Notes under the pieces: model-generated
Seen by the model: the letters and a program-made list of their open reading frames with translations, nothing else
What the model was told of the DNA's origin: nothing
Database searches by the model: none
Made by a program: the position numbers and the translations under genes
NCBI GenBank assembly: GCA_029288895.1
Contig: JARIGK010000004.1
Location: forward strand, 175,866 to 239,865
Origin: Candidatus Adlerbacteria bacterium
GTDB taxonomy: Bacteria > Patescibacteriota > Minisyncoccia > Phycocordibacterales > SBAW01
Length of the DNA: 64,000 bases
Direction: 5' to 3'
In this document: piece by piece, positions 3,890 through 55,660 of the stretch
How positions within the stretch are numbered: the stretch's first letter is position 1
Layout of the letters: the number at the start of each line of letters is the position of its first letter

Positions 3890-4183
3890 GTGATTTCGAA
3901 AGAAGAAATAGCCAAGCTGGCGGAGCTCTCAAGGATAGAGCTGAGTGATGCGGAAATGGAGTCCTTGCAAAAGGATATTTCTAATATTTTGGACTACGTG
4001 GGCCAAGTGAGCGCTGTTGAAGGCGCAGAAGAAAAAGAAGTAGGTTTGAACCACAACGTTATGCGCGACGATGTGCCGTACGACGAAGGCTCGGCGCTTA
4101 AAGCTGCCCGCGAGGATATTGTGAAAGCATTCCCCAAGAGCGAGCGCGACTATAACGTCGTGCGCAAGATAATTGAGAAGTAA
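3890..4183 (+). CDS. gatC: Asp/Glu-tRNA amidotransferase subunit C
   Basis: 97 aa, MISKEEIAKLAELSRIELSDAEMESL... typical GatC; GTG start; directly upstream of gatA. Confidence 0.8.
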   Translation: MISKEEIAKLAELSRIELSDAEMESLQKDISNILDYVGQVSAVEGAEEKEVGLNHNVMRDDVPYDEGSALKAAREDIVKAFPKSERDYNVVRKIIEK

Positions 4184-6223: not shown

Positions 6224-6242
6224 TTTTTTGAACGTATCGTGT

Positions 6243-6311
6243 TGCGGGGCCGGGATTTGCACCCGGGTCCCAAGGTTATGAGCCTTGTGAGGTACTACTC
6301 CTCCACCCCGC
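6243..6311 (-). tRNA. tRNA-like element with CAT anticodon; non-canonical, possibly a pseudogene
   Basis: Reverse complement folds as a cloverleaf (acceptor GCGGGGT/CCCCGC, anticodon loop CTCATAA). Only 69 nt, 1-nt 8/9 linker, T-loop TGCAAAT instead of TTCRANY. Confidence 0.35.
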
Positions 6312-6390
6312 TATCTGTTGAAGCGTTGCCACTTCAGTAGTTTCGCTATTCTAGCAAAAAATCCATAAAAATGCTAGTTTGTGTTGTATT

Positions 6391-6467
6391 GTCGGGGTAG
6401 CTCAGATGGTTAGAGCGTAGCATTCATAACGCTAAGGTCGTGGGTTCGACTCCCACCCTCGACACCA
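6391..6467 (+). tRNA. tRNA-Met/Ile2 (CAT), CCA encoded
   Basis: GTCGGGG acceptor, D-arm GCTCAGATGGTTAGAGC, anticodon loop TTCATAA, T-arm GTGGGTTCGACTCCCAC, 3' CCTCGAC-A-CCA. Confidence 0.75.
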
Positions 6468-6516
6468 GTAGAGAAATTGCGCTATATGCGCTAGTATCTA
6501 CGATGTTCCGCAATAT

Positions 6517-6590
6517 GCGGGAGTAGCTCAACTGGTTAGAGCGCTGCCCTGTCACGGCAGAGGTTGCGGGTTCGAGTCCCGTCTCTCGCG
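6517..6590 (+). tRNA. tRNA-Asp (GTC)
   Basis: GCGGGAG acceptor, anticodon stem CTGCC/GGCAG with loop CTGTCAC, T-arm GCGGGTTCGAGTCCCGT; no encoded CCA. Confidence 0.8.
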
Positions 6591-6625
6591 CACTTCATCA
6601 ATACTTCTGGTAAGGCTGGGATACT

Positions 6626-10348: not shown

Positions 10349-10424
10349 GCCGTTGTAGCTCAGTTGGTAGAGCAACGCCATGGTAAGGCGTAGGTCGGCA
10401 GTTCGATCCTGCCCAACGGCTCCA
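10349..10424 (+). tRNA. tRNA-Thr (GGT), CCA encoded
   Basis: GCCGTTG/CAACGGC acceptor, anticodon loop ATGGTAA, T-arm GGCAGTTCGATCCTGCC, T-CCA end. Confidence 0.85.
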
Positions 10425-10447
10425 GCTTCCAGAGATGGGAAGTGTAC

Positions 10448-10523
10448 GCCAGCGTAGCTCAGTTGGTAGAGCAGCGGTATCGTAAACCGCAGGTCGTCGG
10501 TTCAATCCCGACCGCTGGCTCCA
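10448..10523 (+). tRNA. tRNA-Thr (CGT), CCA encoded
   Basis: GCCAGCG/CGCTGGC acceptor, anticodon loop ATCGTAA, T-arm GTCGGTTCAATCCCGAC. Confidence 0.85.
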
Positions 10524-10556: not shown

Positions 10557-11003
10557 TCCCAAAAACTCTCTATACAATTTGCGGTGGAGGCCGAAGAAAT
10601 CTGGCATTGCATCGACAAGGTCGATAGGGAATTCCTGAGTTTCAAAAAACTCATCTTCATCTTTACCTGGAAATTTTTTTCCAGATAGGTCCCGAAGACG
10701 GCAATACGGAAGACGTGTTTTGTAGAAATACTGAAGATGAGGATTCGCTCCGTATACGGTATACGGTTTACGGACCTCTTCGATGCATACTTCGGGGTCG
10801 CCTCGGTTGGCGAGCCAAAAGCCACCTTCTTCCCACAGTGCGCGAATCACGGCGTCGATTTCGGACTCGCCTTCGTGCATCCCTTCGCCGATAAATTTCC
10901 ACGCATTCTCCGACTTCTTCAGATCTTTGATGAGCAACAGCGTGTCGGGCTGGCGGCTATAGATGGCGAGCATCATAACCGGGAGCCCAAAGTTTGTGTG
11001 CAT
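10545..11003 (-). CDS. NUDIX hydrolase
   Basis: Nudix box GEGMHEGESEIDAVIRALWEEGG (G-x5-E-x7-R[AE]-x2-EE-x-G), 152 aa. Confidence 0.7.
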   Translation of the reverse strand: MHTNFGLPVMMLAIYSRQPDTLLLIKDLKKSENAWKFIGEGMHEGESEIDAVIRALWEEGGFWLANRGDPEVCIEEVRKPYTVYGANPHLQYFYKTRLPYCRLRDLSGKKFPGKDEDEFFETQEFPIDLVDAMPDFFGLHRKLYREFLGYTA

Positions 11004-11076: not shown

Positions 11077-11958
11077 ATGGCAGAGAAAGAAGAAATACAA
11101 AAACGGATTGCAGAAATAGAGGCAGCAATGAATGCTGCTGATTTTTGGGCCGTGCCTGCTAAAGCACAGGCGATGATTAAAGAGTTGCAGGATTTGAAAG
11201 CCGAAGCAGAAGGCGGCGGCAAGTACGACCGCGGCAACGCAATCATGATGATCGTCGCAGGTGCCGGCGGAGATGACGCAGAAGACTTTGCGCAGATGCT
11301 ACTCGAGATGTATCGCAAATTTAGCGAGAAAAAGGGCTGGGGTATGCGCGTGTTGCACAGCCACCCCAACGACCACGGCGGCTATCGCAACATTACTGTG
11401 GAAGTCGAAGGTAAGAGCGCCTACGGCACGCTCAAAAACGAGTACGGGGTGCATCGCTTGGTGCGTATCTCGCCATTTAATGCCTCGCAAAAACGGCAAA
11501 CATCATTTGTCTTGGTAGAAGTGCTGCCGGTTGTAGAAAAGGTCGGCGATTTTGAAGTGCCCGAACAAGAATTAGAAATTACCTTTGCCCGCTCGGGCGG
11601 CCCCGGCGGCCAAAACGTCAACAAACGCGAGACAGCAGTGCGCGTAGTGCATACACCGACGGGCATTTCGGCGCACGCCGATGGCGAGCGTTCGCAAAAT
11701 GCCAACCGCGAGAAAGCGCTTGCGATCGTGAAGGCAAAACTATTTCATCGACTGGAGACAGAGCGTAAAGAAACTATTGCAGAACTTTCAACCAATGCAC
11801 AAAAGATAGAATGGGGAAGCCAGATCCGCTCATATGTGCTGCATCCGTACAAACTTGTAAAAGATCACCGCACGGGTGTTGAGGTAGGGAACGCCGAAGG
11901 TGTGCTCGACGGCAACCTGGAACCCTTCATTGCCGCGTTTGACACAACCCAGAAATAG
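11077..11958 (+). CDS. prfB: Peptide chain release factor 2 (N-terminally short form)
   Basis: SPF tripeptide (RISPFNAS), GGQ motif ([11 protein letters not shown]) and conserved C-terminus. Only 293 aa, with just 73 bp upstream to the next gene, so domain 1 is genuinely shortened; no in-frame TGA frameshift site. Confidence 0.85.
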
Positions 11959-15782: not shown

Positions 15783-15853
15783 TGCCAGATCGTCTAATGG
15801 TAGGACAACGGACTCTGAATCCGTTTATCTTGGTTCGAATCCAAGTCTGGCAG
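15783..15853 (+). tRNA. tRNA-Gln (CTG)
   Basis: U1-A72 acceptor TGCCAGA/TCTGGCA, anticodon stem ACGGA/TCCGT with loop CTCTGAA, T-arm CTTGGTTCGAATCCAAG. Confidence 0.8.
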
Positions 15854-15919
15854 CAGCTTAGTTTAGTATCGGACGACCAAGAGGGGTCAGGAGCTAACAA
15901 CTAATGTACTATTCCTAGT

Positions 15920-16516
15920 ATGGAATATAAATTTGTACTTGGCACTCTTGCGGCGCTTTTTGCCATAGGTAGCGCATATCTCTATATTCGGGATATATTC
16001 CGCGGTAATACAAAACCTCATACCTACACATGGATTATATGGTCCATTGTTACCGCCATTGGGTTTCTTGGACAATGGTATACCGGTGGAGGAGCAGGCT
16101 CATGGGCCACAGGGGTGACAGCTTGTTACTGTTTCATCATTCTGTTTCTTTGCTTCAAATATGGAACAAGCGATATTACGAAGTTTGATCTACTGTGTTT
16201 GGTTCTGGCAATTACCTCTATTGTCCCGTGGCTCTTCTCCCACAATATTTTGTGGTCTGTAATTTTAGCAACAATAACTGATCTACTTGGCTTTCTTCCT
16301 ACAATACGAAAAACATGGCGCGCTCCGCGTAGTGAATCACTCGGGTCACTCTGGTTCGACGTTTTTAAACACGGGCTTTCTGTTGCGTCACTTCAAACGT
16401 ATTCACTTACTACATGGTTGTATCCAGCCGCTATTATCATTGCAAAGATGATGCAGGTGGTCGAAATATCGTATTTACGGTTTCTACGAAAGGAACATAA
16501 GGCGGCTCAAGTATAA
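15920..16516 (+). CDS. Multi-TM membrane protein, paralog 2
   Basis: YLYIRDIFRGNTKPHTYTW..., FDLLCLVLAITSIVPW, LPTIRKTWRAP motifs shared with 7710..8306; AT-richer than its neighbours. Confidence 0.55.
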   Translation: MEYKFVLGTLAALFAIGSAYLYIRDIFRGNTKPHTYTWIIWSIVTAIGFLGQWYTGGGAGSWATGVTACYCFIILFLCFKYGTSDITKFDLLCLVLAITSIVPWLFSHNILWSVILATITDLLGFLPTIRKTWRAPRSESLGSLWFDVFKHGLSVASLQTYSLTTWLYPAAIIIAKMMQVVEISYLRFLRKEHKAAQV

Positions 16517-16524
16517 TTATCTAT

Positions 16525-17151
16525 ATGAGCGAAGTATTTTTGGGTTTACCGATTGCACACTGGCTCGTCCTTCTTTCCATCGGCATCAGTTCAACAGGAG
16601 GCATAACCTACCTCCTCAACATGTTTCGAGGAAAATCCAAACCCAACTTGGTTTCGTGGGGTCTGTGGGGCTTGGCCCCACTTATTGCAACAGGAGCGGC
16701 TATTTCGGCTCATGCCGATTTGTGGGGCACTGCACGTGTTTTTATTTCTGGTTTTGTACCGTTCGTTATTTTTATGTTCGGTCTGTTTTTGAAGCAAAGT
16801 TACTGGAAACTCACTCGCTTCGACTTCTTCTGTGGAGTACTTTCCGTAATTGCTCTAATTGCATGGCTTATTGCTCATGCTCCCGTTGCGGCAATTTTGT
16901 TCGCGATAGCTGCAGACTTGTTTGCCTCAGTGCCGACTCTAGTAAAAGGATGGCAAAGCCCTCATACCGAAACGGCAACCGTTTTTCTTACAAGCCTCAT
17001 ATCATCTCTCATCACAATCCCTGCTATCCCAGTTTGGAATCTTGAAAACACCGCATTTCAAGCGTATCTGATTATTGTAAATCTGGCTTTGTTTGGAGTC
17101 ATAACTTTAGGTAAACTCCTAAAGCCAACACAAAGTGTTTCGACTCAATAG
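16525..17151 (+). CDS. Multi-TM membrane protein, paralog 3 (tandem with paralog 2)
   Basis: LNMFRGKSKPNLVSWGLW, FDFFCGVLSVIALIAW, VPTLVKGWQSPHTE motifs. Confidence 0.55.
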   Translation: MSEVFLGLPIAHWLVLLSIGISSTGGITYLLNMFRGKSKPNLVSWGLWGLAPLIATGAAISAHADLWGTARVFISGFVPFVIFMFGLFLKQSYWKLTRFDFFCGVLSVIALIAWLIAHAPVAAILFAIAADLFASVPTLVKGWQSPHTETATVFLTSLISSLITIPAIPVWNLENTAFQAYLIIVNLALFGVITLGKLLKPTQSVSTQ

Positions 17152-17239
17152 TTCCGAACCCATCTAACCATTGCAGCCAGTAAAATTTTTGCAGTGAAAT
17201 AAGGATATTTTGGATAGGATGATTGGATGATCAGAACTG
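17150..17239 (+). repeat. Intergenic repeat element A, copy 1 (supplies the start codon of the downstream gene)
   Basis: AGTTCCGAACCCATCTAACCATTGCAGCCAGTAAAATTTTTGCAGTGAAATAAGGATATTTTGGATAGGATGATTGGATGATCAGAACTG; near-identical copies at 18314, 19177 and a partial copy at 17738. Confidence 0.75.
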
Positions 17240-17685
17240 CTATACTTCCTGTAATGGAAAAGAGAATACCGGCACTTACGCCAGAGTTAAAAATCACTGA
17301 CTTTAAGAAGAGTCTAAAATTTTATACTACACTCGCTGGTTTTGATATTGAGTACGAACGTCCTGAAGACGAATTCGCAATGCTCAGCAAAGGAGATGCA
17401 TGGATTATGATTGAATCCATTAGCGATAAAAGTCGCATAATGAAAGCAGGGGCTCTCGAGTATCCTTTTGGGCGCGGCATGCATTTTCAGATACAGGTTG
17501 AAGATGTGCAGTCGCTCTACGATACTTTTAAAAGCAATTCTCATCCTATCTTCTCCGAAATGGAAGATAAGTGGTATCGAACAGGCGAGACCGAGGGAGG
17601 GAATAGGCAATTTTGGGTACAAGACCCTGACGGCTACATGCTGCGCTTCTATCAGGACTTAGGTTCTAGGCCTTTTCAGAAGTAG
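17227..17685 (+). CDS. VOC-family protein (glyoxalase / bleomycin-resistance-like)
   Basis: 152 aa with beta-alpha-beta-beta-beta-like modules (KITDFKKSLKFYTTLAGFDI..., WVQDPDGYMLRF); start codon lies inside repeat A copy 1. Confidence 0.6.
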   Translation: MIRTAILPVMEKRIPALTPELKITDFKKSLKFYTTLAGFDIEYERPEDEFAMLSKGDAWIMIESISDKSRIMKAGALEYPFGRGMHFQIQVEDVQSLYDTFKSNSHPIFSEMEDKWYRTGETEGGNRQFWVQDPDGYMLRFYQDLGSRPFQK

Positions 17686-17691
17686 CAGTCC

Positions 17692-17765
17692 AGTTCCGAA
17701 CGACACTAAAATAATCAGTATGGATTTGTATCAAATTGATTCCGAACCCATCTAACCATTGCAGC
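17692..17765 (+). repeat. Repeat element A, truncated copy 2: an isolated AGTTCCGAAC half, then ...TTCCGAACCCATCTAACCATTGCAGC fused to the next gene start
   Basis: AGTTCCGAAC at 17692-17701 directly after the VOC stop; the first 26 bp of element A at 17740-17765 are followed immediately by ATG 17767. Confidence 0.6.
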
Positions 17766-17766
17766 A

Positions 17767-18288
17767 ATGAAAAAGATTTATATAACGGGAGTTTCAGGGA
17801 CAGGAAAAACTACCATTGCACATGAATTAGAAAAGAGGGGCTACCTTGTTGTGAGTATTGATGAGGTGTCAGGGCTGTGCTCATGGACGCATCAAGAGAC
17901 AGGAGAAAAACATGGCGGCAAAGATACGCCCCTCACTAAAGAATTTGTTGATGCCCATGATTGGATTGTAGATATCGAACACTTGAATAAACTTCTCGAT
18001 AAAGATGTCGAAGTGGCGTTTGTACTAGGTATGGCTGGTAATCAGAATGAGTTCTTGCCATCATTCGATAAAATCTTATTGCTAGAATGTAACCCCGAAA
18101 CCTTCAGTGCGAGAATTGACGCACGAACAGACAATGATTTTGGTAAAGACCCACAAATCAAAGCTCAAATTCTCAACCGCTATAAAACTTACGGGGAAGA
18201 GATGCGTTCGCGAGGTGCTATTGTTGTAAATACCGATAGGCCTATTGATGCGGTGGTCAAAGATGTTATTGCTCAAGCCAATGCATAA
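17767..18288 (+). CDS. P-loop NTPase, small kinase-like (adenylate/shikimate-kinase fold)
   Basis: Walker A ITGVSGTGKTTIAHEL at the extreme N-terminus; 173 aa. Confidence 0.6.
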   Translation: MKKIYITGVSGTGKTTIAHELEKRGYLVVSIDEVSGLCSWTHQETGEKHGGKDTPLTKEFVDAHDWIVDIEHLNKLLDKDVEVAFVLGMAGNQNEFLPSFDKILLLECNPETFSARIDARTDNDFGKDPQIKAQILNRYKTYGEEMRSRGAIVVNTDRPIDAVVKDVIAQANA

Positions 18289-18474: not shown

Positions 18475-19086
18475 ATGAACGATCTTGTTAAAGGTCTCGT
18501 TCGCAAGGAAAATATGTTGCAAGAGCTTCTTTCGTTGCCTCGCGACCAACTGGGCAAGGCGATCCAGAGAATCCAGGCCGAGGCTGAAGCGCAGAGTGCC
18601 TTCAAGTTGGGACAGCTCGTTCGAACTTGCAATTCTCCGGGCATCTCACTCGTGGGTGGCCTCAGCGAACTTCCGCACGACCACAATGACCCAAAGCAGC
18701 ATTCCAATACGCGTGTCGTGGGCTGGAATTCTTTTGGTGAAATTGAAGTCGCCACTTCTTACGGGAGTAACCCACATTGTTGCAAGTGGACGCATAGTGA
18801 AAGCAAGATGATTCCTTGCGAGGACGCCGACTGGGCTACTCAAAGTCTTCGCAAACGCGACGAAAAAGTCTCCTACGTATGGGAGCTTCGCGGATTTTGG
18901 GAGGCTGACAATCATGTCGGTGAAGTGGTGCCGGCGATTCTTGTTGTTCCTCACATTAAGGAAGGAGATTGGATCGTACGCTATGCCAAGCCGCATAAGC
19001 GACACGACTGGATCATCCGCGTCATCAACGAGAAACAGATGCTCCCGTCTCTCCCCGACAACGAGTACCCCGCCTCCGACGAATAG
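18475..19086 (+). CDS. Hypothetical protein
   Basis: 203-aa ORF downstream of repeat A copy 3; no recognisable motif. Confidence 0.5.
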   Translation: MNDLVKGLVRKENMLQELLSLPRDQLGKAIQRIQAEAEAQSAFKLGQLVRTCNSPGISLVGGLSELPHDHNDPKQHSNTRVVGWNSFGEIEVATSYGSNPHCCKWTHSESKMIPCEDADWATQSLRKRDEKVSYVWELRGFWEADNHVGEVVPAILVVPHIKEGDWIVRYAKPHKRHDWIIRVINEKQMLPSLPDNEYPASDE

Positions 19087-19265: not shown

Positions 19266-19401
19266 TAGAACGATTTAATCTATTAAATGCAGAAATTCTT
19301 TTTGTTTGGTAGCCTGTCAGAGGAGTAATCTTGCTCCAGCTCCGAGCCCTATAGCGGAATGCTGGGCTCATATTGCAGTGGAATACTGCAAGGAGAGAAC
19401 A

Positions 19402-19980
19402 ATGAAAGTCTCAACCGAAGCGCAGATTGCGCAGTTCATTCAAGAGTATCCCATCCTCGAGAAGCCAATTGAGATATTGCGCAGGAGAGCGAGCGGCGGG
19501 AATAATGTCGCCTTGCGTATTCACATCGCGGTCAAACGCATGGATACGCTGATGCCTTACTTTGTGGGGAACCCGACCAAACCACGTGCGTGGATTCCAG
19601 GTGAGGGTATCAACAAGGGTCTCGACGGCACTGAAGAAGCGCGAGCATATGTCTATTGGCCAATGGCGCACGAGCCGCTCCACTTTCTTTTTGAGTGGTC
19701 TCCAGGAGATGCCCATAAACTCGGGAACCTGCTGCTCGGTATCAAACCCGAAGAAATCGGGCACGTGGTCATCGAGACCTGCTATGTCTGGCATGAGCGC
19801 AGGAAGGATATCACATGGGAAAGTATTGTTGGGCGCACTCCCATGCGGGCGATAGAGGCTACGTTCGTAGTCTTGTTACCGCCTAAGAGCGGGACGGTGG
19901 CGGAGCTGTTCGAAAAAGCTAAACGGGAACATCCTGAACTGAAAACACCCAAGGAGCACGTTGAGTTTCTGAATCGTTAG
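19402..19980 (+). CDS. Hypothetical protein
   Basis: Shine-Dalgarno AAGGAGAG 6 nt before ATG 19402; 192 aa; strong terminator follows. Confidence 0.55.
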   Translation: MKVSTEAQIAQFIQEYPILEKPIEILRRRASGGNNVALRIHIAVKRMDTLMPYFVGNPTKPRAWIPGEGINKGLDGTEEARAYVYWPMAHEPLHFLFEWSPGDAHKLGNLLLGIKPEEIGHVVIETCYVWHERRKDITWESIVGRTPMRAIEATFVVLLPPKSGTVAELFEKAKREHPELKTPKEHVEFLNR

Positions 19981-29997: not shown

Positions 29998-30116
29998 ACA
30001 TAACCCCCGATTGGAAAGAACAACTCTACAATTCTGCACTCGTGCTCCCAAAGGTGGCATGAAGAGAATATGGCCACATTTGACAAAATCATTGCAATAT
30101 ATTATTATTGTTGGCA

Positions 30117-31418
30117 ATGCCAGAACGCAGTCATACAAAGCCGTTTAGCGGCCGCCGTTTCGGAAAGAAGCCTGGAAACAGGGCTTTTTCGACATCGCGT
30201 CCGTCGTACGGTGGAAGCCGCCCTTCATTTGGCGGTGGTCGCCCGCAGTTTAAGAAGCGCCCATTTTCAGGTGGCGCTAAGGGTGGCTCTCGCGGCGGTT
30301 TCAAAGGAGGTTCCTTCTTTGACCTTTCGCAATTCGTAAACAAAGCGGTCATCACCGAAGAAGTTGAGAAGTTTATCCCCGAACACAAGTTTACCGATTT
30401 CCACATCGAACCGCGTTTGAAAGACGCAATTGTGTCGAAGGGCTATATCGCGCCGACCCCAATTCAGGATCGCGCTATTCCGCATGTGTTGATGGGCCAG
30501 GATGTCGTGGGTATTGCAAACACGGGTACCGGCAAGACAGCAACATTCCTCATCCCGCTCATCAATAAAATTTTGAAAAATAAAAACGAGCGTGTGCTCG
30601 TGATGGTGCCGACGCGCGAACTTGCGGTGCAAATAGGCGACGAACTTCGCGGCTTTACGCCAGGCCTCGGTATCTACTCGGCCATTTGCGTGGGTGGTGC
30701 AAGCATCGGCCCGCAGATTTCGCAGCTCCGCCGCCGCCCCAACTTTGTTATTGGTACTCCTGGCCGCCTCAAAGATTTGCTCGAGCGCCGTGCACTCAAC
30801 CTTTCTGACTTTGGCACCGCAGTCTTGGACGAAGCAGACCGCATGCTCGACATGGGCTTCATTAATGATATGAAGACTATTCTCGCACTTTTGCCGAGCC
30901 CTCGCCATACGCTCTTCTTCTCGGCGACGTTGTCGAAAGAAATCGAAAATCTCATTGGCCAGTTCTTGAAAGAACCGGTCCGTATCTCCGTCAAAACACG
31001 AGAGACCTCGGCCTCAATCGACCAGGACGTTGTCCGCGTACCGAAGGGTGGCGATAAGCTCACTGTGCTCCACGACCTGCTTCTTAAGCCTGGGTTTGAA
31101 AAGGTGCTTATCTTCGGCCGCACCAAACACGGCGTCGAGAAGCTTTCCAAGATGCTTGTACAGCGCGGATTTAAATCAGAATCGATCCACGGCAATAAAA
31201 CCCAAAATGCACGCCAGCGCGCACTTGATGGGTTCAAAAAAGGCCACACTAACATTTTGGTTGCGACAGACGTTGCAGCCCGTGGGTTGGATATCTCGGG
31301 TGTTTCTCACGTCATCAACTACGACTTGCCAGCGTCGCGCGAAGACTACGTCCACCGCATCGGCCGCACGGGTCGTGCAGGCAAGCGCGGTATGGCGCTC
31401 ACCTTTATCGAGGCGTAA
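30117..31418 (+). CDS. DEAD-box ATP-dependent RNA helicase with an N-terminal Arg/Gly-rich extension
   Basis: Q-motif, Walker A (ANTGTGKT), DEAD (VLDEADRML), SAT, HRIGRTGR. ~75-aa N-terminal low-complexity RGG/FGG region (SRPSYGGSRPSFGGGRPQFKK...GGSRGGFKGG). Confidence 0.85.
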   Translation: MPERSHTKPFSGRRFGKKPGNRAFSTSRPSYGGSRPSFGGGRPQFKKRPFSGGAKGGSRGGFKGGSFFDLSQFVNKAVITEEVEKFIPEHKFTDFHIEPRLKDAIVSKGYIAPTPIQDRAIPHVLMGQDVVGIANTGTGKTATFLIPLINKILKNKNERVLVMVPTRELAVQIGDELRGFTPGLGIYSAICVGGASIGPQISQLRRRPNFVIGTPGRLKDLLERRALNLSDFGTAVLDEADRMLDMGFINDMKTILALLPSPRHTLFFSATLSKEIENLIGQFLKEPVRISVKTRETSASIDQDVVRVPKGGDKLTVLHDLLLKPGFEKVLIFGRTKHGVEKLSKMLVQRGFKSESIHGNKTQNARQRALDGFKKGHTNILVATDVAARGLDISGVSHVINYDLPASREDYVHRIGRTGRAGKRGMALTFIEA

Positions 31419-31448: not shown

Positions 31449-31739
31449 ATGAAAAACACGAAAGTAAAACCTAAAATTGTAAAAGCTACGAAAGTAGTAA
31501 AGAAGGGGAGCATTGTTAAAAAAGCTCTCATGGCTAAGCCGTTGGCAGGTGAGCCGATGCGCCCCAACGCGCAGCTCCAGGGCCCGCACAAAACTTTCCA
31601 GCAAGACGGCCACTGGATCGAAAAGCCAAACAAGACGCAGATCCTTATCTGCACCTGCGGCAACCGCTACTTGAAGACCCGCCCTCGCCAAGAAAAGTGC
31701 CTCCGCTGCGTCTCCGCAACCCTCACCATCCGCCGCTAA
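31449..31739 (+). CDS. Small Lys-rich protein with a C4 zinc-ribbon
   Basis: KVKPKIVKATKVVKKGSIVKK N-terminus and CTCGN...CLRC; 30 nt downstream of the helicase; terminator follows. Confidence 0.5.
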   Translation: MKNTKVKPKIVKATKVVKKGSIVKKALMAKPLAGEPMRPNAQLQGPHKTFQQDGHWIEKPNKTQILICTCGNRYLKTRPRQEKCLRCVSATLTIRR

Positions 31740-31740
31740 A

Positions 31741-31770
31741 ACTCCCCTTCTCGGGGAGTTTTTGTTTTGT
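31741..31770 (+). terminator. Rho-independent terminator
   Basis: ACTCCCC-ttctc-GGGGAGT + TTTTTGTTTTG. Confidence 0.7.
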
Positions 31771-46891: not shown

Positions 46892-47140
46892 ATGGCACGC
46901 AAATTGTTCATCGGTGGCCTTCCTTACCGCACTACGGGGGATGAGCTCCGTGACGCGTTCGCACAGGCAGGTGAAGTCGTTTCGGCTTCTATCGTCACCG
47001 ATCGCGAAACCGGCCGCTCACGCGGTTTCGGCTTCGTCGAAATGGCAGATGATGCTGCAGACAACGCTATCGCTATGTGGAACGGCAAGGACTTCGGTGG
47101 TCGTATGCTCACCGTTTCCGATGCACGTCCTAAGGCGTAA
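46892..47140 (+). CDS. RRM-domain RNA-binding protein
   Basis: RNP-2 KLFIGGL and RNP-1 RGFGFVEM; 82 aa; long AT-rich 5' leader. Confidence 0.8.
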   Translation: MARKLFIGGLPYRTTGDELRDAFAQAGEVVSASIVTDRETGRSRGFGFVEMADDAADNAIAMWNGKDFGGRMLTVSDARPKA

Positions 47141-48562: not shown

Positions 48563-50428
48563 TTAGACGCCTAGCACTACCGGAATCACGATAGGGCGCT
48601 TGTTGGTTTTTTCGAAGAGGAAGCGGGCGACAGCGTCGGTGACGTTGTTTTTGACGTAGTCGAAGTTGACTGGGTTCATGCCGCGAGTCGTATCCTCGAT
48701 GGTCTTCTTGATAAGAAGACGAGTCTGCTGAAGTAGGTCTTGGTTTTCGCGGAGGTAGACGAAGCCACGCGAGATAATGTCTGGCGATTTGCGCAGGCGG
48801 CCGTTCTTTGGGTTGACGGTCGCGATAATGACGAACATACCTTCTTGTGCGAGTACCGAGCGGTCGCGGATAACCACCTCCTGTATGTCGCCAATAGAGA
48901 AGCCGTCAACGAGGCGAAGTGAGTTCGGCGCATGCTCTTTCAAGCGCACGACAGACTGGCCTTCGTCGCGGATTTCGATAACCGTACCATTGTCGGGGAT
49001 GATGACTTCGTCCTCGCGGCGGCCGCAGGCCTTGGCAATTTCGCCATGGGTGCGGAGCATGTAGTGGTAGCCGTGCATCGGCATAAAGAAGCGCGGGTTT
49101 ACGTGCATGTGGATCCAGACGAGTTCGTCGCGGTTTGCGTGGCCCGAGGCATGGATGTCCATCGTCTTGCGGTGGATAATCTTGGCACCCTGGCGCGAGA
49201 TGTTGTCTTTCAATTTTTGCACTGCGCGTTCGTTGCCTGGGATAACAGATGACGAAAGGAGGACAATGTCTGTTGGCTTCAATTTGATGTATTTGTGCGT
49301 CTTCATCGCGACACGCATAAGCGCTGCAAATTCGTCGCCCTGCGCACCCGTGGCCAAGATAAGGATCTTGTTGTCAGGCAAGTGCTCCAACTCTTGTGCG
49401 CTGATGAACGTCTTTTCAGGGACCTTCAACATGCCAAGCTGTTTGACGATATCGATGTTGACCTTCATCGAACGGCCTTCGACAAGCACATGCTTGCCTG
49501 CATTTGCAGCCGTTTCAACAATGTGGATGATGCGCTCGAGCTGCGACGAGAAGGTGCCGATGATAAGGCGGCCTTTGGTCGAGGTAATAACCTCTTCCAT
49601 GTTTTTGCGCACCGTGCGCTCTGGAAGCGAGAAGCCAGGCTCTTCGCAGTTGGTCGAGTCTGCCATGAGCATAAGCACGTTCATGTCTTTAAAGATGGAC
49701 CACTCTTTTTCTTCCTGCTCTGTTGGGACGCCGTTGATGTGGTCGAGCTTCAAGTCGCCGGTTGCAACGATATTGCCGTGCGGCGTTTCGATGATGATGC
49801 CCATCGAGTCGGGGATAGTGTGGGTCACAGAGAAGAAACGAATCTTCAATTTGCCCGCGCGGACGCTCTCGTTCTTTTCTACTTCGTGGATAGTAAGAGG
49901 CTTCAAGTTCGGGAATTCTTCCTGGCGCTTCTTAACCATGATTGAGGTAAGAAGGCGGGTGTAGACAGGCGGGTAACCGATGCGGTCGATAACGTACGGG
50001 ATGCCGCCGATGTGGTCGAGGTGGCCGTGCGTAATAAAGAGGCCACGGATTTTATCGCGGCGCTCTTCCAAGTAGCGCGTGTTCGGCAAGATGTAGTCGA
50101 TGCCTGGCGTATCATCTTCGCGGAATTGGAAACCGCAGTCGATGATAACAATGTCATCGCCGTACTCGACGGCCGTCATGTTGCGACCGATTTCTTCCAC
50201 GCCGCCAAGCGGGATGATGCGGATGTTACCTGGCTCGAGCGGTGGAACTGGCTTTTCGTCCGGGTTGGCAGTGTTTTGCCCCGGTTCGAATTCTTTTATC
50301 TCGCGCACTGGGTGCGGCTGATGAGGCTTAGGACCTTCGCGGCGGAAATCATTCCGGCGCCCACGCCCACCGCGGCCTCCGCGGCCGCGACCTGCGCCAC
50401 CTCTGGGAGCTTTCTTCTTCTCTTCCAT
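48563..50428 (-). CDS. rnj: Ribonuclease J with an N-terminal Arg/Gly-rich extension
   Basis: Metallo-beta-lactamase HxHxDH (ITHGHLDHIGG), beta-CASP and C-terminal domains; first ~45 aa are RGGAGRGRGGRGGRGRRNDFRREG. Confidence 0.9.
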   Translation of the reverse strand: MEEKKKAPRGGAGRGRGGRGGRGRRNDFRREGPKPHQPHPVREIKEFEPGQNTANPDEKPVPPLEPGNIRIIPLGGVEEIGRNMTAVEYGDDIVIIDCGFQFREDDTPGIDYILPNTRYLEERRDKIRGLFITHGHLDHIGGIPYVIDRIGYPPVYTRLLTSIMVKKRQEEFPNLKPLTIHEVEKNESVRAGKLKIRFFSVTHTIPDSMGIIIETPHGNIVATGDLKLDHINGVPTEQEEKEWSIFKDMNVLMLMADSTNCEEPGFSLPERTVRKNMEEVITSTKGRLIIGTFSSQLERIIHIVETAANAGKHVLVEGRSMKVNIDIVKQLGMLKVPEKTFISAQELEHLPDNKILILATGAQGDEFAALMRVAMKTHKYIKLKPTDIVLLSSSVIPGNERAVQKLKDNISRQGAKIIHRKTMDIHASGHANRDELVWIHMHVNPRFFMPMHGYHYMLRTHGEIAKACGRREDEVIIPDNGTVIEIRDEGQSVVRLKEHAPNSLRLVDGFSIGDIQEVVIRDRSVLAQEGMFVIIATVNPKNGRLRKSPDIISRGFVYLRENQDLLQQTRLLIKKTIEDTTRGMNPVNFDYVKNNVTDAVARFLFEKTNKRPIVIPVVLGV

Positions 50429-50484: not shown

Positions 50485-52239
50485 TTAGTGCGCAAACGGG
50501 GGCCATACCTGGTCTGTCTCTTTGTGCCAGCCCCTGATGCTCAAAAATCGGTCGCTTGGAGTTTCGATAAACCCGAGATCTACCCCAGCGAGGTCGTTAG
50601 GTACAATATACACGAAATCGGGCGCATAGAGAAATACGGCAGGGTTGTCTTTGGAAAGCTCGCCAGCAAATTGCTGGTAGAGCGAGAGGCGCTTCTGTTC
50701 GTCGCTGGTCTGGCGCAATGCCTCGAGTGTTTTGTCTGCTGTGGCATTTGCGTACATAGCGATGTTGAGCCCCGGGTCATTGCGCTGGCTCGAATCCCAG
50801 AAGGCAAAGAGGTCGAGCTCGCGGCCGACAACTTCGCCAAACAACAGTGCGTCGTACTTACGCGGGCGGATAACATTTTGTGAGAGGTCGCCTTGGTCGT
50901 AAATTTGAATGTCTACTTTGATACCAACTTTGGCCCAGGTAGTTTTGACATATTCTGCTGCTGCGCGAAGTTCGGGCACATTGCCTGTGGCCAAGCTAAA
51001 TTCAAGCGTTGTAGTTTTTGCGCTCTTGCCCGAGCCGCTCACTTTTTGCATAAAACCATCCGGGCCCATCTTCCACCCGGCGCGCGTAAGCTCGTTTTGC
51101 GCTTTTGCGATTGCTTGGTCTTGTGAGCTTGTTGCCGCACCGATTGTTGTGCCCGAGATAATGCTTGGCGGGACAGGGCCCGACAGTGCAGTGCCGTAGC
51201 CGCCCAACACTTGTGCCACAAGCGCCTGGCGGTCGAGCGAATCGTTGAGTGCTTGGCGCACGGCCCCGTCGCGAAGCACAACGGATTGGTTTTGATTAAA
51301 GAAGACGCCGAAGACACGGTTTAAGGGTGCCTGTTCGACGCGGAAGCCGTTCAAGGTCGACAGTGCCGCAGGTGAGATGCTGCTTGCCGATTCAATCGAG
51401 CCGCCTTTGAGTGCCGTCACTAAATCATCCTCATTTTGGTAAAAGCGGAGCGTGACATGTTCGAGGTAGGGCGCGCCCAATGTGTATTTTGAGAAGCCAT
51501 CAAGCTCGTACGATGAGGGGATGCCAGATGACGTGCGCGAAATCGACGCAATCTTAAATGGCCCTGAACCTACAGGCGAGGTGTTTAAGTCGCTGAAGGG
51601 GAATTCGTCATCGCTGATGTTTTGCCACAAACTCTTCGGGATAATGCCAAGTGTGAGGTTTGCAATAAAGGGTGCGTACGGGGCTTTCAATGTAAATTGC
51701 ACGGTTTCTGGGTCGACTTCTGTGACGACAACGCCGTCCCAGTTTGCGCGCACAGGGCTCTTCAATTGCGGGTCCTGTGTTTTTTGGATGGTAAAGACGA
51801 CGTCGTCGGCAGTCACGTGCGTGCCGTTATGGAAGGTCGCGTCAGGGCGCAGGTGGAAGGTGTACGTGCGGCCGTCGGGAGAGATATCGTAGGATGCCGC
51901 CAAGTCGTCGGTGTAGTCGCCGTCTGGCGTTGCGCGTAAGAGGCCAGAGTACACAAGTGACGAAAGGTCGCGGTCGGCATCAGACACGGCCAACACGGGG
52001 TTTATAAAGCGAGGCGCGCCGACGATACCTTCTGCAAGTGAGCCGCCGTGCGCTGGCACTCGTACGAGCAATGCTGCGTTCAATATATAGACGAGGCCGA
52101 CAACGCTTACGACCAAGAGCCCTGCAAAGAATAAAAAGAGGGCACGACCGCTGGCCGAAAAGGTGTGGTACGTATCTTGCGCGCGGGCAAGTAGAGGGAA
52201 GCGAGGAGTGTTAGTTTGATTGCGCCAAAACGAACGCAT
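50485..52239 (-). CDS. ABC transporter substrate-binding protein, family 5 (oligopeptide/dipeptide-binding-like)
   Basis: ~585 aa from the internal ATG 52239 (MRSFWRNQ...); N-terminal TM anchor then an SBP_bac_5-type fold. The upstream part of the ORF-track reading frame overlaps secG and is rejected. Confidence 0.75.
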   Translation of the reverse strand: MRSFWRNQTNTPRFPLLARAQDTYHTFSASGRALFLFFAGLLVVSVVGLVYILNAALLVRVPAHGGSLAEGIVGAPRFINPVLAVSDADRDLSSLVYSGLLRATPDGDYTDDLAASYDISPDGRTYTFHLRPDATFHNGTHVTADDVVFTIQKTQDPQLKSPVRANWDGVVVTEVDPETVQFTLKAPYAPFIANLTLGIIPKSLWQNISDDEFPFSDLNTSPVGSGPFKIASISRTSSGIPSSYELDGFSKYTLGAPYLEHVTLRFYQNEDDLVTALKGGSIESASSISPAALSTLNGFRVEQAPLNRVFGVFFNQNQSVVLRDGAVRQALNDSLDRQALVAQVLGGYGTALSGPVPPSIISGTTIGAATSSQDQAIAKAQNELTRAGWKMGPDGFMQKVSGSGKSAKTTTLEFSLATGNVPELRAAAEYVKTTWAKVGIKVDIQIYDQGDLSQNVIRPRKYDALLFGEVVGRELDLFAFWDSSQRNDPGLNIAMYANATADKTLEALRQTSDEQKRLSLYQQFAGELSKDNPAVFLYAPDFVYIVPNDLAGVDLGFIETPSDRFLSIRGWHKETDQVWPPFAH

Positions 52240-52273
52240 AAATATAAGTGGCCCATACGGGCCATTGAGTTGC

Positions 52274-52504
52274 TTAGTGGATGACGAGAGCGACGAACGC
52301 TGAGGCAGCGAACAAGATACCCACAATGATGGTTGTACGGAAGAGGTACTTTTCGAGACCGCGGCGTGTGTGGTACGCAGCGCTGAAGTTGTCGGCGCCG
52401 AATGCGCCGCCCAAGGATGCGCCTGTTTGCTGCAACAAGATGCAGACAATAAGCACGACCGAAAGCACTATTTGTATATAGGGCAATGCGCCCGCTATCG
52501 TCAT
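52274..52504 (-). CDS. secG: Preprotein translocase subunit SecG
   Basis: 76 aa, MTIAGALPYIQIVLSVVLIVCILLQQTGASLGGAFG...: 2 TM with a Gly-rich loop typical of SecG. Confidence 0.65.
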   Translation of the reverse strand: MTIAGALPYIQIVLSVVLIVCILLQQTGASLGGAFGADNFSAAYHTRRGLEKYLFRTTIIVGILFAASAFVALVIH

Positions 52505-52598: not shown

Positions 52599-52970
52599 AT
52601 GAAGAAGGCTAAAAAAAGTGTGAAAAAAGCAGTAAAGCCTGCTGCGAAGAAAAAGGCTGTTTTGAAGACTGGTTCTACGAAGAGTGCTCTTGGCCGCCCG
52701 TACGGCGACCGTGTGTTGGTAAAGCCCACACCGATGGAACAGACGACATCGTTTGGCCTTATCATCCCAGACTCGACTAAAGAGAAGCCAGAAACAGGTG
52801 TTGTTGTGGCGGTGGGCGATGGCCGCATTTCGGCAGACGGCAAAGTAATGCCGATGCGCGTGCAGGTTGGCGACACGATTATGTTTTCTAAGTACGGCTA
52901 CGACGAGGTCAAAGTACAGGGCACAGACTATTACTTGATCCGCGAAGAGAGCATCACATACATCTTCTAG
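52599..52970 (+). CDS. groES: Co-chaperonin GroES with a ~30-aa Lys-rich N-terminal extension
   Basis: GDRVLVKP...GLIIPDSTKEKP..GVVVAVGDG...VGDTIMFSKYGYDEVKV...YYLIREESI; preceded by MKKAKKSVKKAVKPAAKKKAVLK. Confidence 0.85.
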   Translation: MKKAKKSVKKAVKPAAKKKAVLKTGSTKSALGRPYGDRVLVKPTPMEQTTSFGLIIPDSTKEKPETGVVVAVGDGRISADGKVMPMRVQVGDTIMFSKYGYDEVKVQGTDYYLIREESITYIF

Positions 52971-52980
52971 TTATTTCTAA

Positions 52981-54642
<1,662 letters not shown>

Positions 54643-55570: not shown

Positions 55571-55660
55571 GGAGGCGTCGCATAGTGGTCTAGTGCACCG
55601 CCTTGGAAAGGCGGCATCGGGGAAACCTGATCGAGAGTTCGAATCTCTCCGCCTCCGCCA
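55571..55660 (+). tRNA. tRNA-Ser (GGA), long variable arm, CCA encoded
   Basis: GGAGGCG/CGCCTCC acceptor, anticodon stem CCGCC/GGCGG with loop TTGGAAA, variable arm ~18 nt, T-arm GAGAGTTCGAATCTCTC. Confidence 0.8.

What the first reader, a model, noticed from the sequence alone, without database searches (positions are those of the whole stretch)
48563..50428. RNA-decay enzymes carry Arg/Gly-rich N-terminal extensions; GroES carries a Lys-rich N-terminal extension
RNase J begins with ~45 aa of RGGAGRGRGGRGGRGRR before the beta-lactamase domain. The DEAD-box helicase (30117..31418) has a ~75-aa N-terminal GGSRPSFGGGRPQFKK...GGSRGGFKGG tract before the Q-motif. RGG/FGG low-complexity regions are classic RNA-binding, condensate-forming elements, usually C-terminal in bacterial helicases and RNase E. 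Finding them N-terminal on both the helicase and RNase J suggests an RNase J-based degradosome-like assembly mediated by these tails. GroES (52599..52970) has a 30-aa histone-H1-like Lys-rich N-terminal extension (MKKAKKSVKKAVKPAAKKK...) before the canonical fold, which is unusual for GroES.
Basis: seen in the sequence. Interest (0 to 1): 0.6.

Follow-up and report, generated by a model that had tools for sequence, protein, structure and literature searches.

The report
Basic disordered N-tails on RNase J, helicase, GroES
In this ultra-small (Patescibacteria) bacterium, the main RNA-degrading enzyme, an RNA helicase and the GroES co-chaperonin each carry a real, translated, positively charged floppy tail at the N-terminus; the tails are conserved across the lineage, which extends a feature so far described for RNase J only in Helicobacter, but what they do is untested.

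Summary
RNase J (48563..50428, -) has about 66 residues ahead of the catalytic core, including a tri-RGG tract. The DEAD-box helicase (30117..31418, +) has about 72-88 G/S/R/K/F/P-rich residues and no C-terminal tail. GroES (52599..52970, +) has about 32 lysine-rich residues (net +12).

These are not start-codon errors. There is no internal ATG, and substitutions against close relatives are biased to the third codon position, clearly for RNase J and the helicase and only weakly for GroES. A conserved near-consensus promoter ends 8 nt before the helicase ATG. Nearly all of the 120 closest homologues listed for each protein carry the tail.

The window is from Paceibacteria (Adlerbacteria-like). 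In 66 species-representative Patescibacteria genomes the RNase J tail holds about 20% R+K whatever the GC content, and R versus K tracks GC. So "RGG" is the high-GC version of a generic polycationic tail. AlphaFold2 predicts the RNase J and helicase tails as disordered. The RNase J tail also contains a near-invariant short motif (R29-G32-P33-x-P35-H36-Q37-x-x-P40-x-R42), and other subclades have different motifs.

Most likely these are RNA or polyanion tethers plus a docking motif, analogous to the RNase E and RhlE C-terminal tails and the H. pylori RNase J N-tail. A tail-mediated RNase J-helicase degradosome remains unproven. I rate it a new variant of a known kind, of moderate interest.

The parts
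48563..50428 (-). RNase J gene (621 aa)
   Evidence: ORF. Pfam hits: RNase_J_b_CASP 6.8e-41, RNase_J_C 1.8e-23, Lactamase_B 6e-15. PDB 3zq4 RNase J1, E=2.9e-136. An identical 621-aa protein is in NCBI.
50231..50428 (-). RNase J N-terminal extension, residues 1-66 (predicted disordered to about residue 58)
   Evidence: AF2 gives pLDDT <50 for residues 1-58. It is absent from solved RNase J chains except the non-homologous H. pylori tail. It is present in 120/120 homologues. Codon-position substitutions are 7/7/36, with 27 synonymous and 14 non-synonymous changes.
50354..50404 (-). Tri-RGG / RG-rich tract, residues 9-25 (RGGAGRGRGGRGGRGRR)
   Evidence: Sequence. It has 3 RGG and 10 RG/GR dipeptides. 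The mRNA here is 75-77% GC and strongly folded.
50300..50344 (-). Conserved short linear motif, residues 29-43 (RREGPKPHQPHPVRE)
   Evidence: P35, Q37 and R42 are invariant. R29, G32, P33, H36 and P40 are at least 90% conserved in 101 sequences. GP[KR]PHQ..P occurs in 114/120 close homologues and nowhere else in the window. It is predicted disordered in the monomer.
30117..31418 (+). DEAD-box RNA helicase gene (433 aa), with no C-terminal tail
   Evidence: Pfam DEAD 9.3e-48 and Helicase_C 2.2e-34. PDB CshA, E=1.2e-83, aligning residues 94-431. An identical protein is in NCBI (P0121).
30117..30332 (+). Helicase N-terminal G/S/R/K/F/P-rich tail, residues 1-72
   Evidence: Composition. Mean pLDDT is 44-56 over residues 1-80, with segments below 50 covering most of residues 1-66. 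A compositionally similar tail of at least 40 aa is present in about 112 of 120 homologues listed. Codon-position substitutions are 17/16/32, with an in-frame 7-codon indel.
30333..30386 (+). Conserved linker FVNKAVITEEVEKFIPEH, residues 73-90, between the tail and the Q-motif region
   Evidence: F73, N75, K76, A77, E81, F86 and E89 are at least 90% conserved, and P88 and H90 are invariant. AF2 confidence is only moderate, 52-67.
30080..30108 (+). Sigma-70-like promoter TTGACA-17-TATTAT, ending 8 nt before the helicase ATG
   Evidence: It matches 11/12 consensus positions. The hexamers and the spacing to the ATG are conserved in L084 and L085, while sequence further upstream diverges. This implies a leaderless or near-leaderless mRNA starting at 30117.
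31449..31739 (+). Small ORF (96 aa) with a lysine-rich N-tail, co-transcribed with the helicase
   Evidence: Residues 1-30 hold K11, net +11. It is conserved directly downstream of the helicase in L084 and L085. Its core shows codon-position substitutions of 7/3/22. A terminator-like hairpin lies at 31738..31762. It has no Pfam or PDB match.
52599..52970 (+). GroES gene (123 aa)
   Evidence: Pfam Cpn10 1.4e-26, residues 33-120. GroEL follows at 52999..54642. An identical protein is in NCBI (P0241).
52599..52694 (+). GroES lysine-rich N-terminal tail, residues 1-32
   Evidence: K12, no D/E, entropy 2.69. 118/120 homologues carry a K-rich tail of 20-71 aa, median position of the core motif 32. 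Solved GroES chains start at query residue about 33.

Best explanation
The three extensions are genuine, translated, fast-evolving N-terminal tails that are characteristic of Paceibacteria (Patescibacteria/CPR). They are strongly positively charged and are predicted or inferred to be intrinsically disordered.

Shown:
- They are coding and conserved across the lineage.
- They are absent from canonical homologues.
- The RNase J and helicase tails are predicted disordered.
- Charge density is conserved while sequence and the R/K choice drift with genome GC.

Inferred for RNase J and the helicase: the tails act as auxiliary, sequence-nonspecific RNA-binding tethers. They would be the functional counterpart of the basic C-terminal disordered regions of RNase E, RhlE, CshA and DeaD, moved to the N-terminus. 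They would raise the local RNA concentration at the catalytic cores and favour co-residence of both enzymes on the same RNAs or ribosomes.

The RNase J tail is also a small scaffold. It carries a near-invariant short linear motif, R-x-x-G-P-[KR]-P-H-Q-x-x-P-x-R, and other subclades carry their own motifs. This resembles the conserved 'microdomains' in the RNase E disordered region and implies a specific docking partner, still unknown, which might or might not be the helicase.

Inferred for GroES: the tail is a separate, lysine-only tail, giving about +84 charges per presumed heptamer. It most plausibly tethers the co-chaperonin to polyanions such as ribosomes/RNA, nucleoid, polyphosphate or anionic membrane. 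There is no evidence that it belongs to the RNA-decay story.
For: Real and translated:
- Searches show third-position substitution bias and in-frame indels. The bias is strong for RNase J, moderate for the helicase and weak for GroES.
- Searches show a conserved promoter 8 nt before the helicase ATG.
- Searches show the same starts in NCBI records.

Lineage-wide:
- Searches find tails in 120/120, about 112/120 (at least 40 aa) and 118/120 homologues listed.
- One search covers 66 species-representative Patescibacteria genomes with at least 20 aa ahead of the core. Median RNase J extension is about 96 aa (an upper estimate, taken from the first ATG). R+K is about 20% and independent of GC (rho -0.06). 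R/(R+K) tracks GC (rho 0.72, p=1e-11).
- One search finds at least 75 of the 150 best 50%-identity representatives with 25 aa or more ahead of the core, mostly basic.

Disorder: searches give low AF2 pLDDT for RNase J residues 1-58 (<50) and the helicase tail (10-residue block means 44-56 over residues 1-80).

Non-canonical position: searches show solved RNase J, GroES and DEAD-box cores aligning only after the tails, and the helicase core ending at 431/433.

Docking motifs: one search gives the invariant and near-invariant positions. One search finds the motif in 114/120 close homologues and finds different motifs in four other subclades, each in 5-8 of the genome loci.

Selectivity: searches show that housekeeping enzymes in the window (LigA, GatA-like amidase, PyrG, ClpP, LexA, GroEL) lack such tails.

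Precedent: H. pylori RNase J has a 132-aa N-terminal disordered region important for activity. It forms a degradosome with the DEAD-box helicase RhpA, associated with ribosomes and forming foci (PMC10700544, PMC7492731, PMC3592473).
Against: - No binding, localisation or interaction data exist for any of these proteins.
- RNA binding by the tails is inferred from composition only.
- AF2 low confidence is only a proxy for disorder, and it was computed on monomers, so a motif that docks in trans or on the RNase J dimer or tetramer would be missed.
- The RNase J tail is not uniformly basic. Residues 43-66 are acidic/proline-rich, and the net charge of the whole tail is only +6.
- GroES has no known RNA role.
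- The K-only composition of the GroES tail in a 52% GC genome, whose RNase J tail is R-rich, shows the tails are not one uniform phenomenon.
Confidence: 0.6

Rival explanations
1. The RG/FG-rich tails of RNase J and the helicase bind each other, directly or through RNA, and build an RNase J-based degradosome or condensate equivalent to BR-bodies or the H. pylori RNase J-RhpA complex.
For: Both enzymes carry predicted disordered basic N-tails that are conserved together in the same clade and on the same contigs. The RNase J tail meets the tri-RGG spacing pattern. The conserved short motif in RNase J and the conserved acidic linker FINKAVITEEVE in the helicase could form a docking pair. H. pylori offers a precedent for an RNase J/DEAD-box degradosome with an N-terminal disordered region on RNase J (PMC3592473, PMC7492731).
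Against: Nothing here tests an interaction. The two genes lie 18 kb apart and are not co-transcribed. Two like-charged polycationic tails would repel unless bridged by RNA. In H. pylori the role of the tail in complex formation is itself unknown (PMC10700544). In low-GC relatives the RNase J tail lacks RGG altogether.
Confidence: 0.25
2. Start-codon mis-annotation. The true proteins start at the canonical cores and the upstream 'tails' are untranslated leader sequence that happens to be open.
For: No Shine-Dalgarno site lies upstream of any of the three ATGs. One older GenBank record (OGC88376.1, 553 aa) annotates a close RNase J homologue from 'MRIIPLGG'. An in-frame TTG occurs at codon 22 of GroES.
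Against: Shine-Dalgarno sites are absent from most genes in this window, GroEL included. No ATG exists between M1 and the core. The shorter annotation needs a non-ATG/GTG/TTG start, because the window has ATC there. The frames stay open in 120/120 and 118/120 homologues. Third-position substitution bias, an excess of synonymous changes in RNase J, and in-frame indels all indicate coding. Motifs in the tail are invariant at the protein level. A conserved promoter places the transcription start at the helicase ATG.
Confidence: 0.03
3. Non-adaptive low-complexity expansion. The tails are tolerated products of replication slippage or compositional drift at unconstrained N-termini of a fast-evolving, small-population lineage, with no specific function.
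For: Tail sequences evolve fast and vary widely in length, 37-117 aa among close homologues and up to about 350 aa among representatives. The R/K choice simply follows GC. Non-synonymous changes are proportionally more frequent than in the cores.
Against: Charge density is held at about 20% R+K across the GC range. The tails are retained in essentially every homologue sampled. Near-invariant motifs are embedded in the tails. Only a few proteins in the window have tails. In reduced genomes, useless sequence tends to be lost (established knowledge).
Confidence: 0.08
4. For GroES only, the lysine run acts mainly at the mRNA level. An A-rich, weakly structured 5' coding region would boost initiation in a genome without Shine-Dalgarno sites, and the protein tail would be a by-product.
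For: The first 60-nt windows of the GroES mRNA are 32-42% GC and fold at -9 to -12 kcal/mol, against a gene mean of -13. The genome lacks SD sites. The tail uses K, not R, although RNase J in the same genome uses R.
Against: The difference in folding energy is under 1 SD. Initiation effects normally reach about 10 codons, not 30-40 (established knowledge). GroEL reaches an equally open start without a K-run. AAA and AAG are used about equally. Roughly 84 extra positive charges per presumed heptamer would hardly be neutral.
Confidence: 0.07

Closest known systems
Helicobacter pylori RNase J (N-terminal 132-aa disordered extension) with the DEAD-box helicase RhpA: the minimal RNase J degradosome
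   Same: RNase J carries an N-terminal, non-catalytic, predicted disordered extension ahead of an otherwise canonical beta-lactamase/beta-CASP/C-terminal architecture. A DEAD-box helicase is encoded in the same genome. The organism has a small genome; whether it lacks RNase E could not be checked from this window.
   Different: The tails share no sequence homology: full-length H. pylori RNase J (8cgl) aligns only from its residue 143 to query residue 67. The tail here is shorter (about 66 aa) and RG-rich, with its own conserved motif. The published papers call the N-terminal segment specific to Helicobacter (PMC10700544, PMC7492731). RhpA's predicted disordered region is C-terminal, whereas this helicase's tail is N-terminal. 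No interaction data exist for the proteins here.
RNase E C-terminal disordered scaffold with conserved microdomains (AR1/AR2 RNA-binding segments, helicase/enolase/PNPase sites); BR-bodies
   Same: A basic, Arg-rich disordered region is attached to the main decay nuclease, with short conserved islands inside rapidly diverging sequence. Different clades carry different islands.
   Different: The nuclease family is different (beta-CASP, not RNase E/G). The region is N-terminal, not C-terminal, and about ten times shorter. No partner has been mapped and phase separation is untested.
Basic C-terminal extensions of bacterial DEAD-box helicases (RhlE, DeaD/CsdA, CshA, Hera; PMC11260450)
   Same: A minimal two-RecA core is combined with a Gly/Arg/Lys-rich disordered auxiliary region, which in those proteins supplies RNA binding, specificity and phase separation.
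   Different: Here the region is at the N-terminus and the C-terminus ends 2 residues after the core. It is rich in F, S and P as well as R, K and G.
Eukaryotic DDX3/LAF-1/Vasa(DDX4)-type helicases with N-terminal RGG/FG disordered regions
   Same: A G/R/F/S-rich disordered region sits N-terminal to a DEAD-box core. Vasa and DDX3X cores are among the best PDB matches after CshA.
   Different: This is a bacterial protein and the tail is about 80 aa, against 130-250 aa. It has only one strict RGG. The resemblance of the tails is compositional, with no evidence of common descent.
Histone-H1-like lysine/alanine-rich tails of bacterial nucleic-acid-binding proteins (e.g. mycobacterial HupB/MDP1, Chlamydia Hc1, actinobacterial TopA)
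   Same: The GroES tail has KKA/AKK-type composition with no acidic residues.
   Different: The tail is attached to a co-chaperonin, not a DNA-binding protein. Nucleic-acid binding is untested. The comparison rests on my own knowledge of those proteins, not on a search made here.

Membership tests
RNase J (beta-CASP metallo-beta-lactamase ribonuclease) | Metallo-beta-lactamase domain with the HxHxDH metal motif | tested here: met
   THGHLDHIG at residues 133-141 is invariant in 101 sequences. Pfam Lactamase_B 6e-15.
RNase J (beta-CASP metallo-beta-lactamase ribonuclease) | Beta-CASP insertion and RNase J C-terminal domain, with full-length similarity to solved RNase J | tested here: met
   PF22505 6.8e-41 and PF17770 1.8e-23. 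3zq4 RNase J1, E=2.9e-136, over residues 70-620.
DEAD-box RNA helicase | Q motif, motif I (GTGKT), motif II (DEAD), motif III (SAT), motif VI (HRIGRTGR) | tested here: met
   PTPIQ 113-117, ANTGTGKT 134-141, LDEADRM 237-243, SAT 269-271 and HRIGRTGR 413-420, all invariant or at least 90% conserved. Pfam DEAD 9.3e-48 and Helicase_C 2.2e-34.
GroES / Cpn10 | Cpn10 fold over its full length, adjacent to groEL | tested here: met
   PF00166 1.4e-26 covers profile positions 3-90 of 93. GroEL starts 29 nt downstream. The order is syntenic in L081-L083.
RGG/RG-motif region (tri-RGG: three RGG separated by 0-4 residues; definition recalled from Thandapani et al. 2013) | At least three closely spaced RGG repeats | tested here: met
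   In RNase J, R9GG, R16GG and R19GG have spacers of 4 and 0 residues.
RGG/RG-motif region (tri-RGG: three RGG separated by 0-4 residues; definition recalled from Thandapani et al. 2013) | The same criterion applied to the helicase tail | tested here: not met
   There is only one RGG (SRGGF) and 3 RG/GR dipeptides. The tail is G/S/F/P/R/K-rich instead.
RGG/RG-motif region (tri-RGG: three RGG separated by 0-4 residues; definition recalled from Thandapani et al. 2013) | RGG character conserved in orthologues | tested here: not met
   Low-GC Patescibacteria RNase J tails are K-rich and have few or no RGG. Only the positive charge is conserved.
H. pylori-type RNase J degradosome | N-terminal intrinsically disordered extension on RNase J | tested here: met
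   AF2 pLDDT <50 for residues 1-58, and the composition is low-complexity. This is prediction only.
H. pylori-type RNase J degradosome | Tail homologous to the Helicobacter tail | tested here: not met
   The phmmer alignment to full-length H. pylori RNase J (8cgl) starts at query residue 67 / chain residue 143. The tails do not align.
H. pylori-type RNase J degradosome | Physical RNase J-DEAD-box helicase complex, ribosome association, foci | not testable with these tools
   This needs pull-down, two-hybrid or microscopy experiments, or at least multimer structure prediction, which the tool does not allow.
Phase-separating RNA-decay scaffold (BR-body type) | RNA-dependent condensate formation driven by the disordered region | not testable with these tools
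   Only composition and predicted disorder are available.
Signal or targeting peptide (considered for the GroES and RNase J tails) | Basic n-region followed by a hydrophobic h-region | tested here: not met
   No hydrophobic stretch follows the basic runs (sequences). Judged by inspection only; no predictor was run.

The most novel reading that the evidence does not exclude
Patescibacteria have rebuilt an RNase E-like degradosome scaffold on the N-terminus of RNase J. On this reading the polycationic disordered tail and its clade-specific short motifs (here GPKPHQxHPxR) recruit the N-tailed DEAD-box helicase, perhaps through its conserved acidic FINKAVITEEVE linker, and possibly ribosomes. A parallel lysine-rich tail would bring GroES, and the small K-tailed protein co-transcribed with the helicase, to the same RNA- or ribosome-rich compartment. 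That would be a charge-driven organising principle for the cytoplasm of ultra-small cells.
Probability: 0.12. Interest if true: 0.8.

Novelty: new variant of a known kind. Interest (0 to 1): 0.5.

Why it matters
Basic disordered tails on RNA-decay enzymes are what organise degradosomes and RNA-decay bodies in model bacteria. For RNase J, however, an N-terminal disordered tail has been described only in Helicobacter and has been called specific to that genus.

The result here is that a very large, uncultivated radiation carries such tails systematically on RNase J and on its DEAD-box helicase. The tails have conserved charge density and clade-specific docking motifs. This gives a natural comparative data set for asking what these tails do, and it identifies a concrete motif to mutate.

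The lysine tail on GroES is, as far as the searches made here show, undescribed. It is a simple, testable oddity in one of the best-studied protein machines.

There is also a practical point for annotation. These genomes are almost free of Shine-Dalgarno sites and at least one of these genes looks leaderless, so long N-terminal low-complexity extensions should not be trimmed as artefacts.

Tried and rejected
- Start mis-annotation was tested by the SD survey, alternative-start inspection, codon-position substitution counts and promoter conservation. It was rejected.
- The exact-protein context look-up for P0121 returned nothing. Close relatives P0001, P0005, P0122 and P0123 were used instead.
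- Promoter scans gave no convincing promoter for RNase J or GroES. Only the helicase has one.
- Literature searches for CPR/Patescibacteria combined with RNase J or disordered tails, and for GroES with lysine-rich N-terminal extensions, found nothing relevant. This covers only the open-access library searched, so it is not proof that the features are undescribed.
- A proteome-wide basic-tail trend was considered and rejected for this window. Only 4 of about 71 ORFs have such tails.
- A signal-peptide or Tat-like reading of the tails was rejected by inspection, because no hydrophobic core follows the basic run.
- The RNase J motif GP[KR]PHQ was searched for in the helicase and GroES homologue sets and in all six frames of the window. 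It occurs only in RNase J, so there is no shared motif linking the proteins.
- The small ORF 31449..31739 gave no Pfam or PDB match.
- A multimer prediction of RNase J with the helicase could not be run, because the tool takes single window proteins only.
Full report
**What is there.** The window is a roughly 52% GC stretch of housekeeping genes. These include LigA, an amidase, CTP synthase, FtsE/X, AcrB, ClpP, LexA, GlmS and GroES/EL. The best homologues of its proteins are named Candidatus Adlerbacteria, Kaiserbacteria, Paceibacterota or Patescibacteria. It therefore comes from a Paceibacteria (CPR) genome. Identical RNase J, helicase and GroES proteins, with the same starts, sit on a 298-kb NCBI contig.

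**Checking the observation.**

- RNase J (48563..50428, minus strand, 621 aa) begins MEEKKKAPRGGAGRGRGGRGGRGRRNDFRREGPKPHQPHPVREIKEFEPGQNTANPDEKPVPPLEPGN, followed by IRIIPLGG. Pfam places the beta-lactamase domain from residue 82. Solved RNase J structures align only from query residue about 58-70 to their own residues 4-25. The extension is therefore about 66 aa. The tri-RGG tract is residues 9-25.
- The DEAD-box helicase (ATG at 30117, 433 aa) has 72 residues made up of G16, S11, R9, F9, K7 and P7, net +14. A conserved linker follows. The solved CshA and Hera cores align from residue about 91-94 to 431 of 433, so there is no C-terminal tail at all.
- GroES (52599..52970, 123 aa) has 32 residues with 12 Lys and no acidic residue ahead of a complete Cpn10 domain. 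Solved bacterial GroES chains (94-100 aa) align their residues 3-8 to query residue 32-33, and mitochondrial Hsp10 chains their residues 9-14.
- Among 71 non-overlapping ORFs in the window, only RNase J, GroES and one small ORF have an N-terminal 25-aa window with at least 40% K+R. The helicase reaches 32%.

- There is no in-frame ATG between M1 and the cores.
- The genome almost never uses Shine-Dalgarno sequences; 24 of 30 clear genes, groEL included, have none within 15 nt of the start. Lack of an SD is therefore not informative.
- Codon alignments against close relatives fetched with their DNA show substitutions in the extensions at codon positions 1/2/3 of 7/7/36 for RNase J (27 synonymous, 14 non-synonymous), 17/16/32 for the helicase (with a 21-nt in-frame indel) and 9/7/14 for GroES.
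- These patterns indicate coding sequence under relaxed purifying selection for RNase J and the helicase. For GroES the bias is weak (8 synonymous, 14 non-synonymous; 14/15/17 against L082). There, the argument rests mainly on the frame staying open in 118/120 homologues.
- A near-consensus promoter, TTGACA-17-TATTAT, ends 8 nt before the helicase ATG. The two hexamers and that spacing are conserved in two relatives while sequence further upstream has diverged. This implies a leaderless or nearly leaderless mRNA beginning at the annotated start.
- One 2016 GenBank record annotates a close RNase J homologue from 'MRIIPLGG' (553 aa). That would need a non-standard start codon and is contradicted by all of the above.

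**Distribution.**

- RNase J: all 120 closest homologues (71-94% identity) carry 37-117 residues ahead of the core.
- Helicase: about 112 of the 120 homologues listed carry a compositionally similar tail of at least 40 residues ahead of the conserved linker; the others are shorter, and some look truncated.
- GroES: 118 of 120 homologues carry a 20-71-residue K-rich tail.
- In 66 species-representative Patescibacteria genomes with at least 20 residues ahead of the core, the median RNase J extension is about 96 aa, counted from the first in-frame ATG and so possibly overestimated. R+K content is about 20% irrespective of GC (rho -0.06). The Arg fraction of the basic residues follows GC (rho 0.72, p about 1e-11).
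- In an exhaustive search of 1.84 billion representatives, at least 75 of the best 150 RNase J clusters have 25 residues or more ahead of the core, up to about 350 aa and mostly basic. Their taxonomy is not known.
- 'RGG' is thus the high-GC version of a generic polycationic tail. What is conserved is charge and disorder.

**Structure and motifs.** AlphaFold2 with 101-sequence alignments predicts RNase J residues 1-58 at pLDDT <50. The helicase tail has 10-residue block means of 44-56 over residues 1-80, with segments below 50 covering most of residues 1-66. Both have confident canonical cores.

Inside the RNase J tail there is an island that is nearly invariant. P35, Q37 and R42 are invariant, and R29, G32, P33, H36 and P40 are at least 90% conserved. 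The pattern GP[KR]PHQ..P occurs in 114 of 120 close homologues and nowhere else in the window or in the helicase and GroES sets.

Other subclades have different islands at the equivalent place: HR.VLGKGA.KHP...HIAGARM, STYQYSK, and R[RQ]I[QR]R[IT]LRRP. This pattern of conserved short motifs in a rapidly diverging basic disordered region is what is known for the RNase E C-terminal scaffold. It argues for specific docking on top of generic electrostatics. The helicase has a conserved, partly acidic linker (F.NKA...E....F.PEH, residues 73-90) of only moderate predicted confidence.

**Mechanism.**

- Shown: the tails are real, selected, lineage-wide and non-canonical in position, and two of them are predicted disordered.
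- Inferred: the RNase J and helicase tails act as auxiliary RNA tethers. This rests on established knowledge of RhlE, CshA and DeaD C-terminal extensions and RNase E AR segments (PMC11260450), and on H. pylori RNase J, whose 132-aa N-terminal disordered region is important for activity (PMC10700544, PMC7492731, PMC3592473).
- Inferred: the RNase J short motif recruits an unknown partner.
I put it at about 0.25. The two genes are 18 kb apart, like-charged tails need an RNA bridge, and no shared motif exists.
- The GroES tail is a different case. It is lysine-only, in the same genome whose RNase J tail is Arg-rich. The likeliest role is tethering to polyanions such as ribosomes/RNA, nucleoid, polyphosphate or membrane.
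- An mRNA-level role for the A-rich GroES start region gets only weak support.
- GroEL in this clade has an acidic C-terminal tail without GGM repeats. I note this but cannot connect it to the GroES tail.

**Comparison with known systems.** The closest precedent is the H. pylori RNase J/RhpA minimal degradosome. The tails are not homologous, because full-length 8cgl aligns only from its residue 143. The literature calls the N-terminal segment specific to Helicobacter, so the Patescibacteria case is an independent and much more widespread instance. The helicase architecture, an N-terminal G/R/F/S tail on a bare core, resembles eukaryotic DDX3/LAF-1/Vasa rather than bacterial helicases. No paper in the searchable library mentions these tails in CPR, or a Lys-rich N-terminal GroES extension. 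That library is open-access only, so this is not proof of novelty.

**Verdict.** I rate it a new variant of a known kind and of moderate interest (0.5). The finding is a solid, lineage-wide comparative result with a concrete motif to test, but no function has been demonstrated.

Noticed in passing
window 31449..31739 (+); L084 5319..5609; L085 5307..5585: A 96-aa ORF lies 30 nt downstream of the helicase. It has a lysine-rich N-tail (11 K in 30 aa) and a Cys-containing C-terminal half (CTCG...CLRC, possibly a zinc ribbon). It is conserved in the same position in relatives, and its core is under purifying selection (7/3/22). It has no Pfam or PDB match. A terminator-like hairpin at 31738..31762 suggests a two-gene operon with the helicase.
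   Followed up: partly
window 30080..30116 (+); L084 and L085 upstream of position 4001: A near-consensus promoter, TTGACA-17-TATTAT, ends 8 nt before the helicase ATG and is conserved in relatives. This implies a leaderless or near-leaderless mRNA.
   Followed up: yes
whole window (30 gene starts surveyed): Shine-Dalgarno-like motifs are missing upstream of most genes, including groEL, ligA and pyrG. The genome appears largely SD-independent.
   Followed up: partly
window 46892..47140 (+): An 82-aa stand-alone RRM_1 RNA-binding protein (Pfam 2.8e-20) lies two genes from RNase J. The order GroEL-GroES / SecG / SBP_bac_5 / RNase J / HhH-GPD glycosylase / RRM is syntenic in relatives L081-L083.
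   Followed up: partly
window ~50320..50404 (-), RNase J mRNA nt +25..+110: The RGG-coding tract is 75-77% GC. It folds at -25 to -33 kcal/mol per 60 nt, against a gene mean of -13 +/- 4.7, directly after an unstructured start region. It may simply reflect GGN/CGN codons, or it may influence translation or stability of the RNase J mRNA.
   Followed up: partly
window 54550..54642 (+), GroEL C-terminus; L081, L082: GroEL ends in an acidic/proline tail ([20 protein letters not shown]) instead of the canonical GGM repeats. Two relatives have similar tails.
   Followed up: partly
window 16001..18000: A lower-GC stretch (0.43 against about 0.52) contains ORFs with no Pfam match (16525..17151, 18475..19086, 19306..19980). 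It may be acquired or lineage-specific DNA.
   Followed up: no
window 11077..11958 (+): The peptide-chain release factor gene is only 293 aa. The PCRF domain matches only from profile position 95, so the N-terminal domain is shortened. No prfB-type frameshift site was found immediately upstream: the single CTTTGA at 10925 lies in a region whose three forward frames all contain stops.
   Followed up: partly
window 50485..52449 (-) and ~52250..52480 (-): The longest ORF for the SBP_bac_5 solute-binding protein (654 aa, TTG start) is probably over-extended, because relatives have 577-583 aa. In relatives a SecG gene lies between it and GroES.
   Followed up: no
window 6241..6591, 10349..10523, 15783..15854, 55571..55660: There are seven tRNA genes: Met x2, Asp, Thr x2, Gln and Ser.
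   Followed up: no
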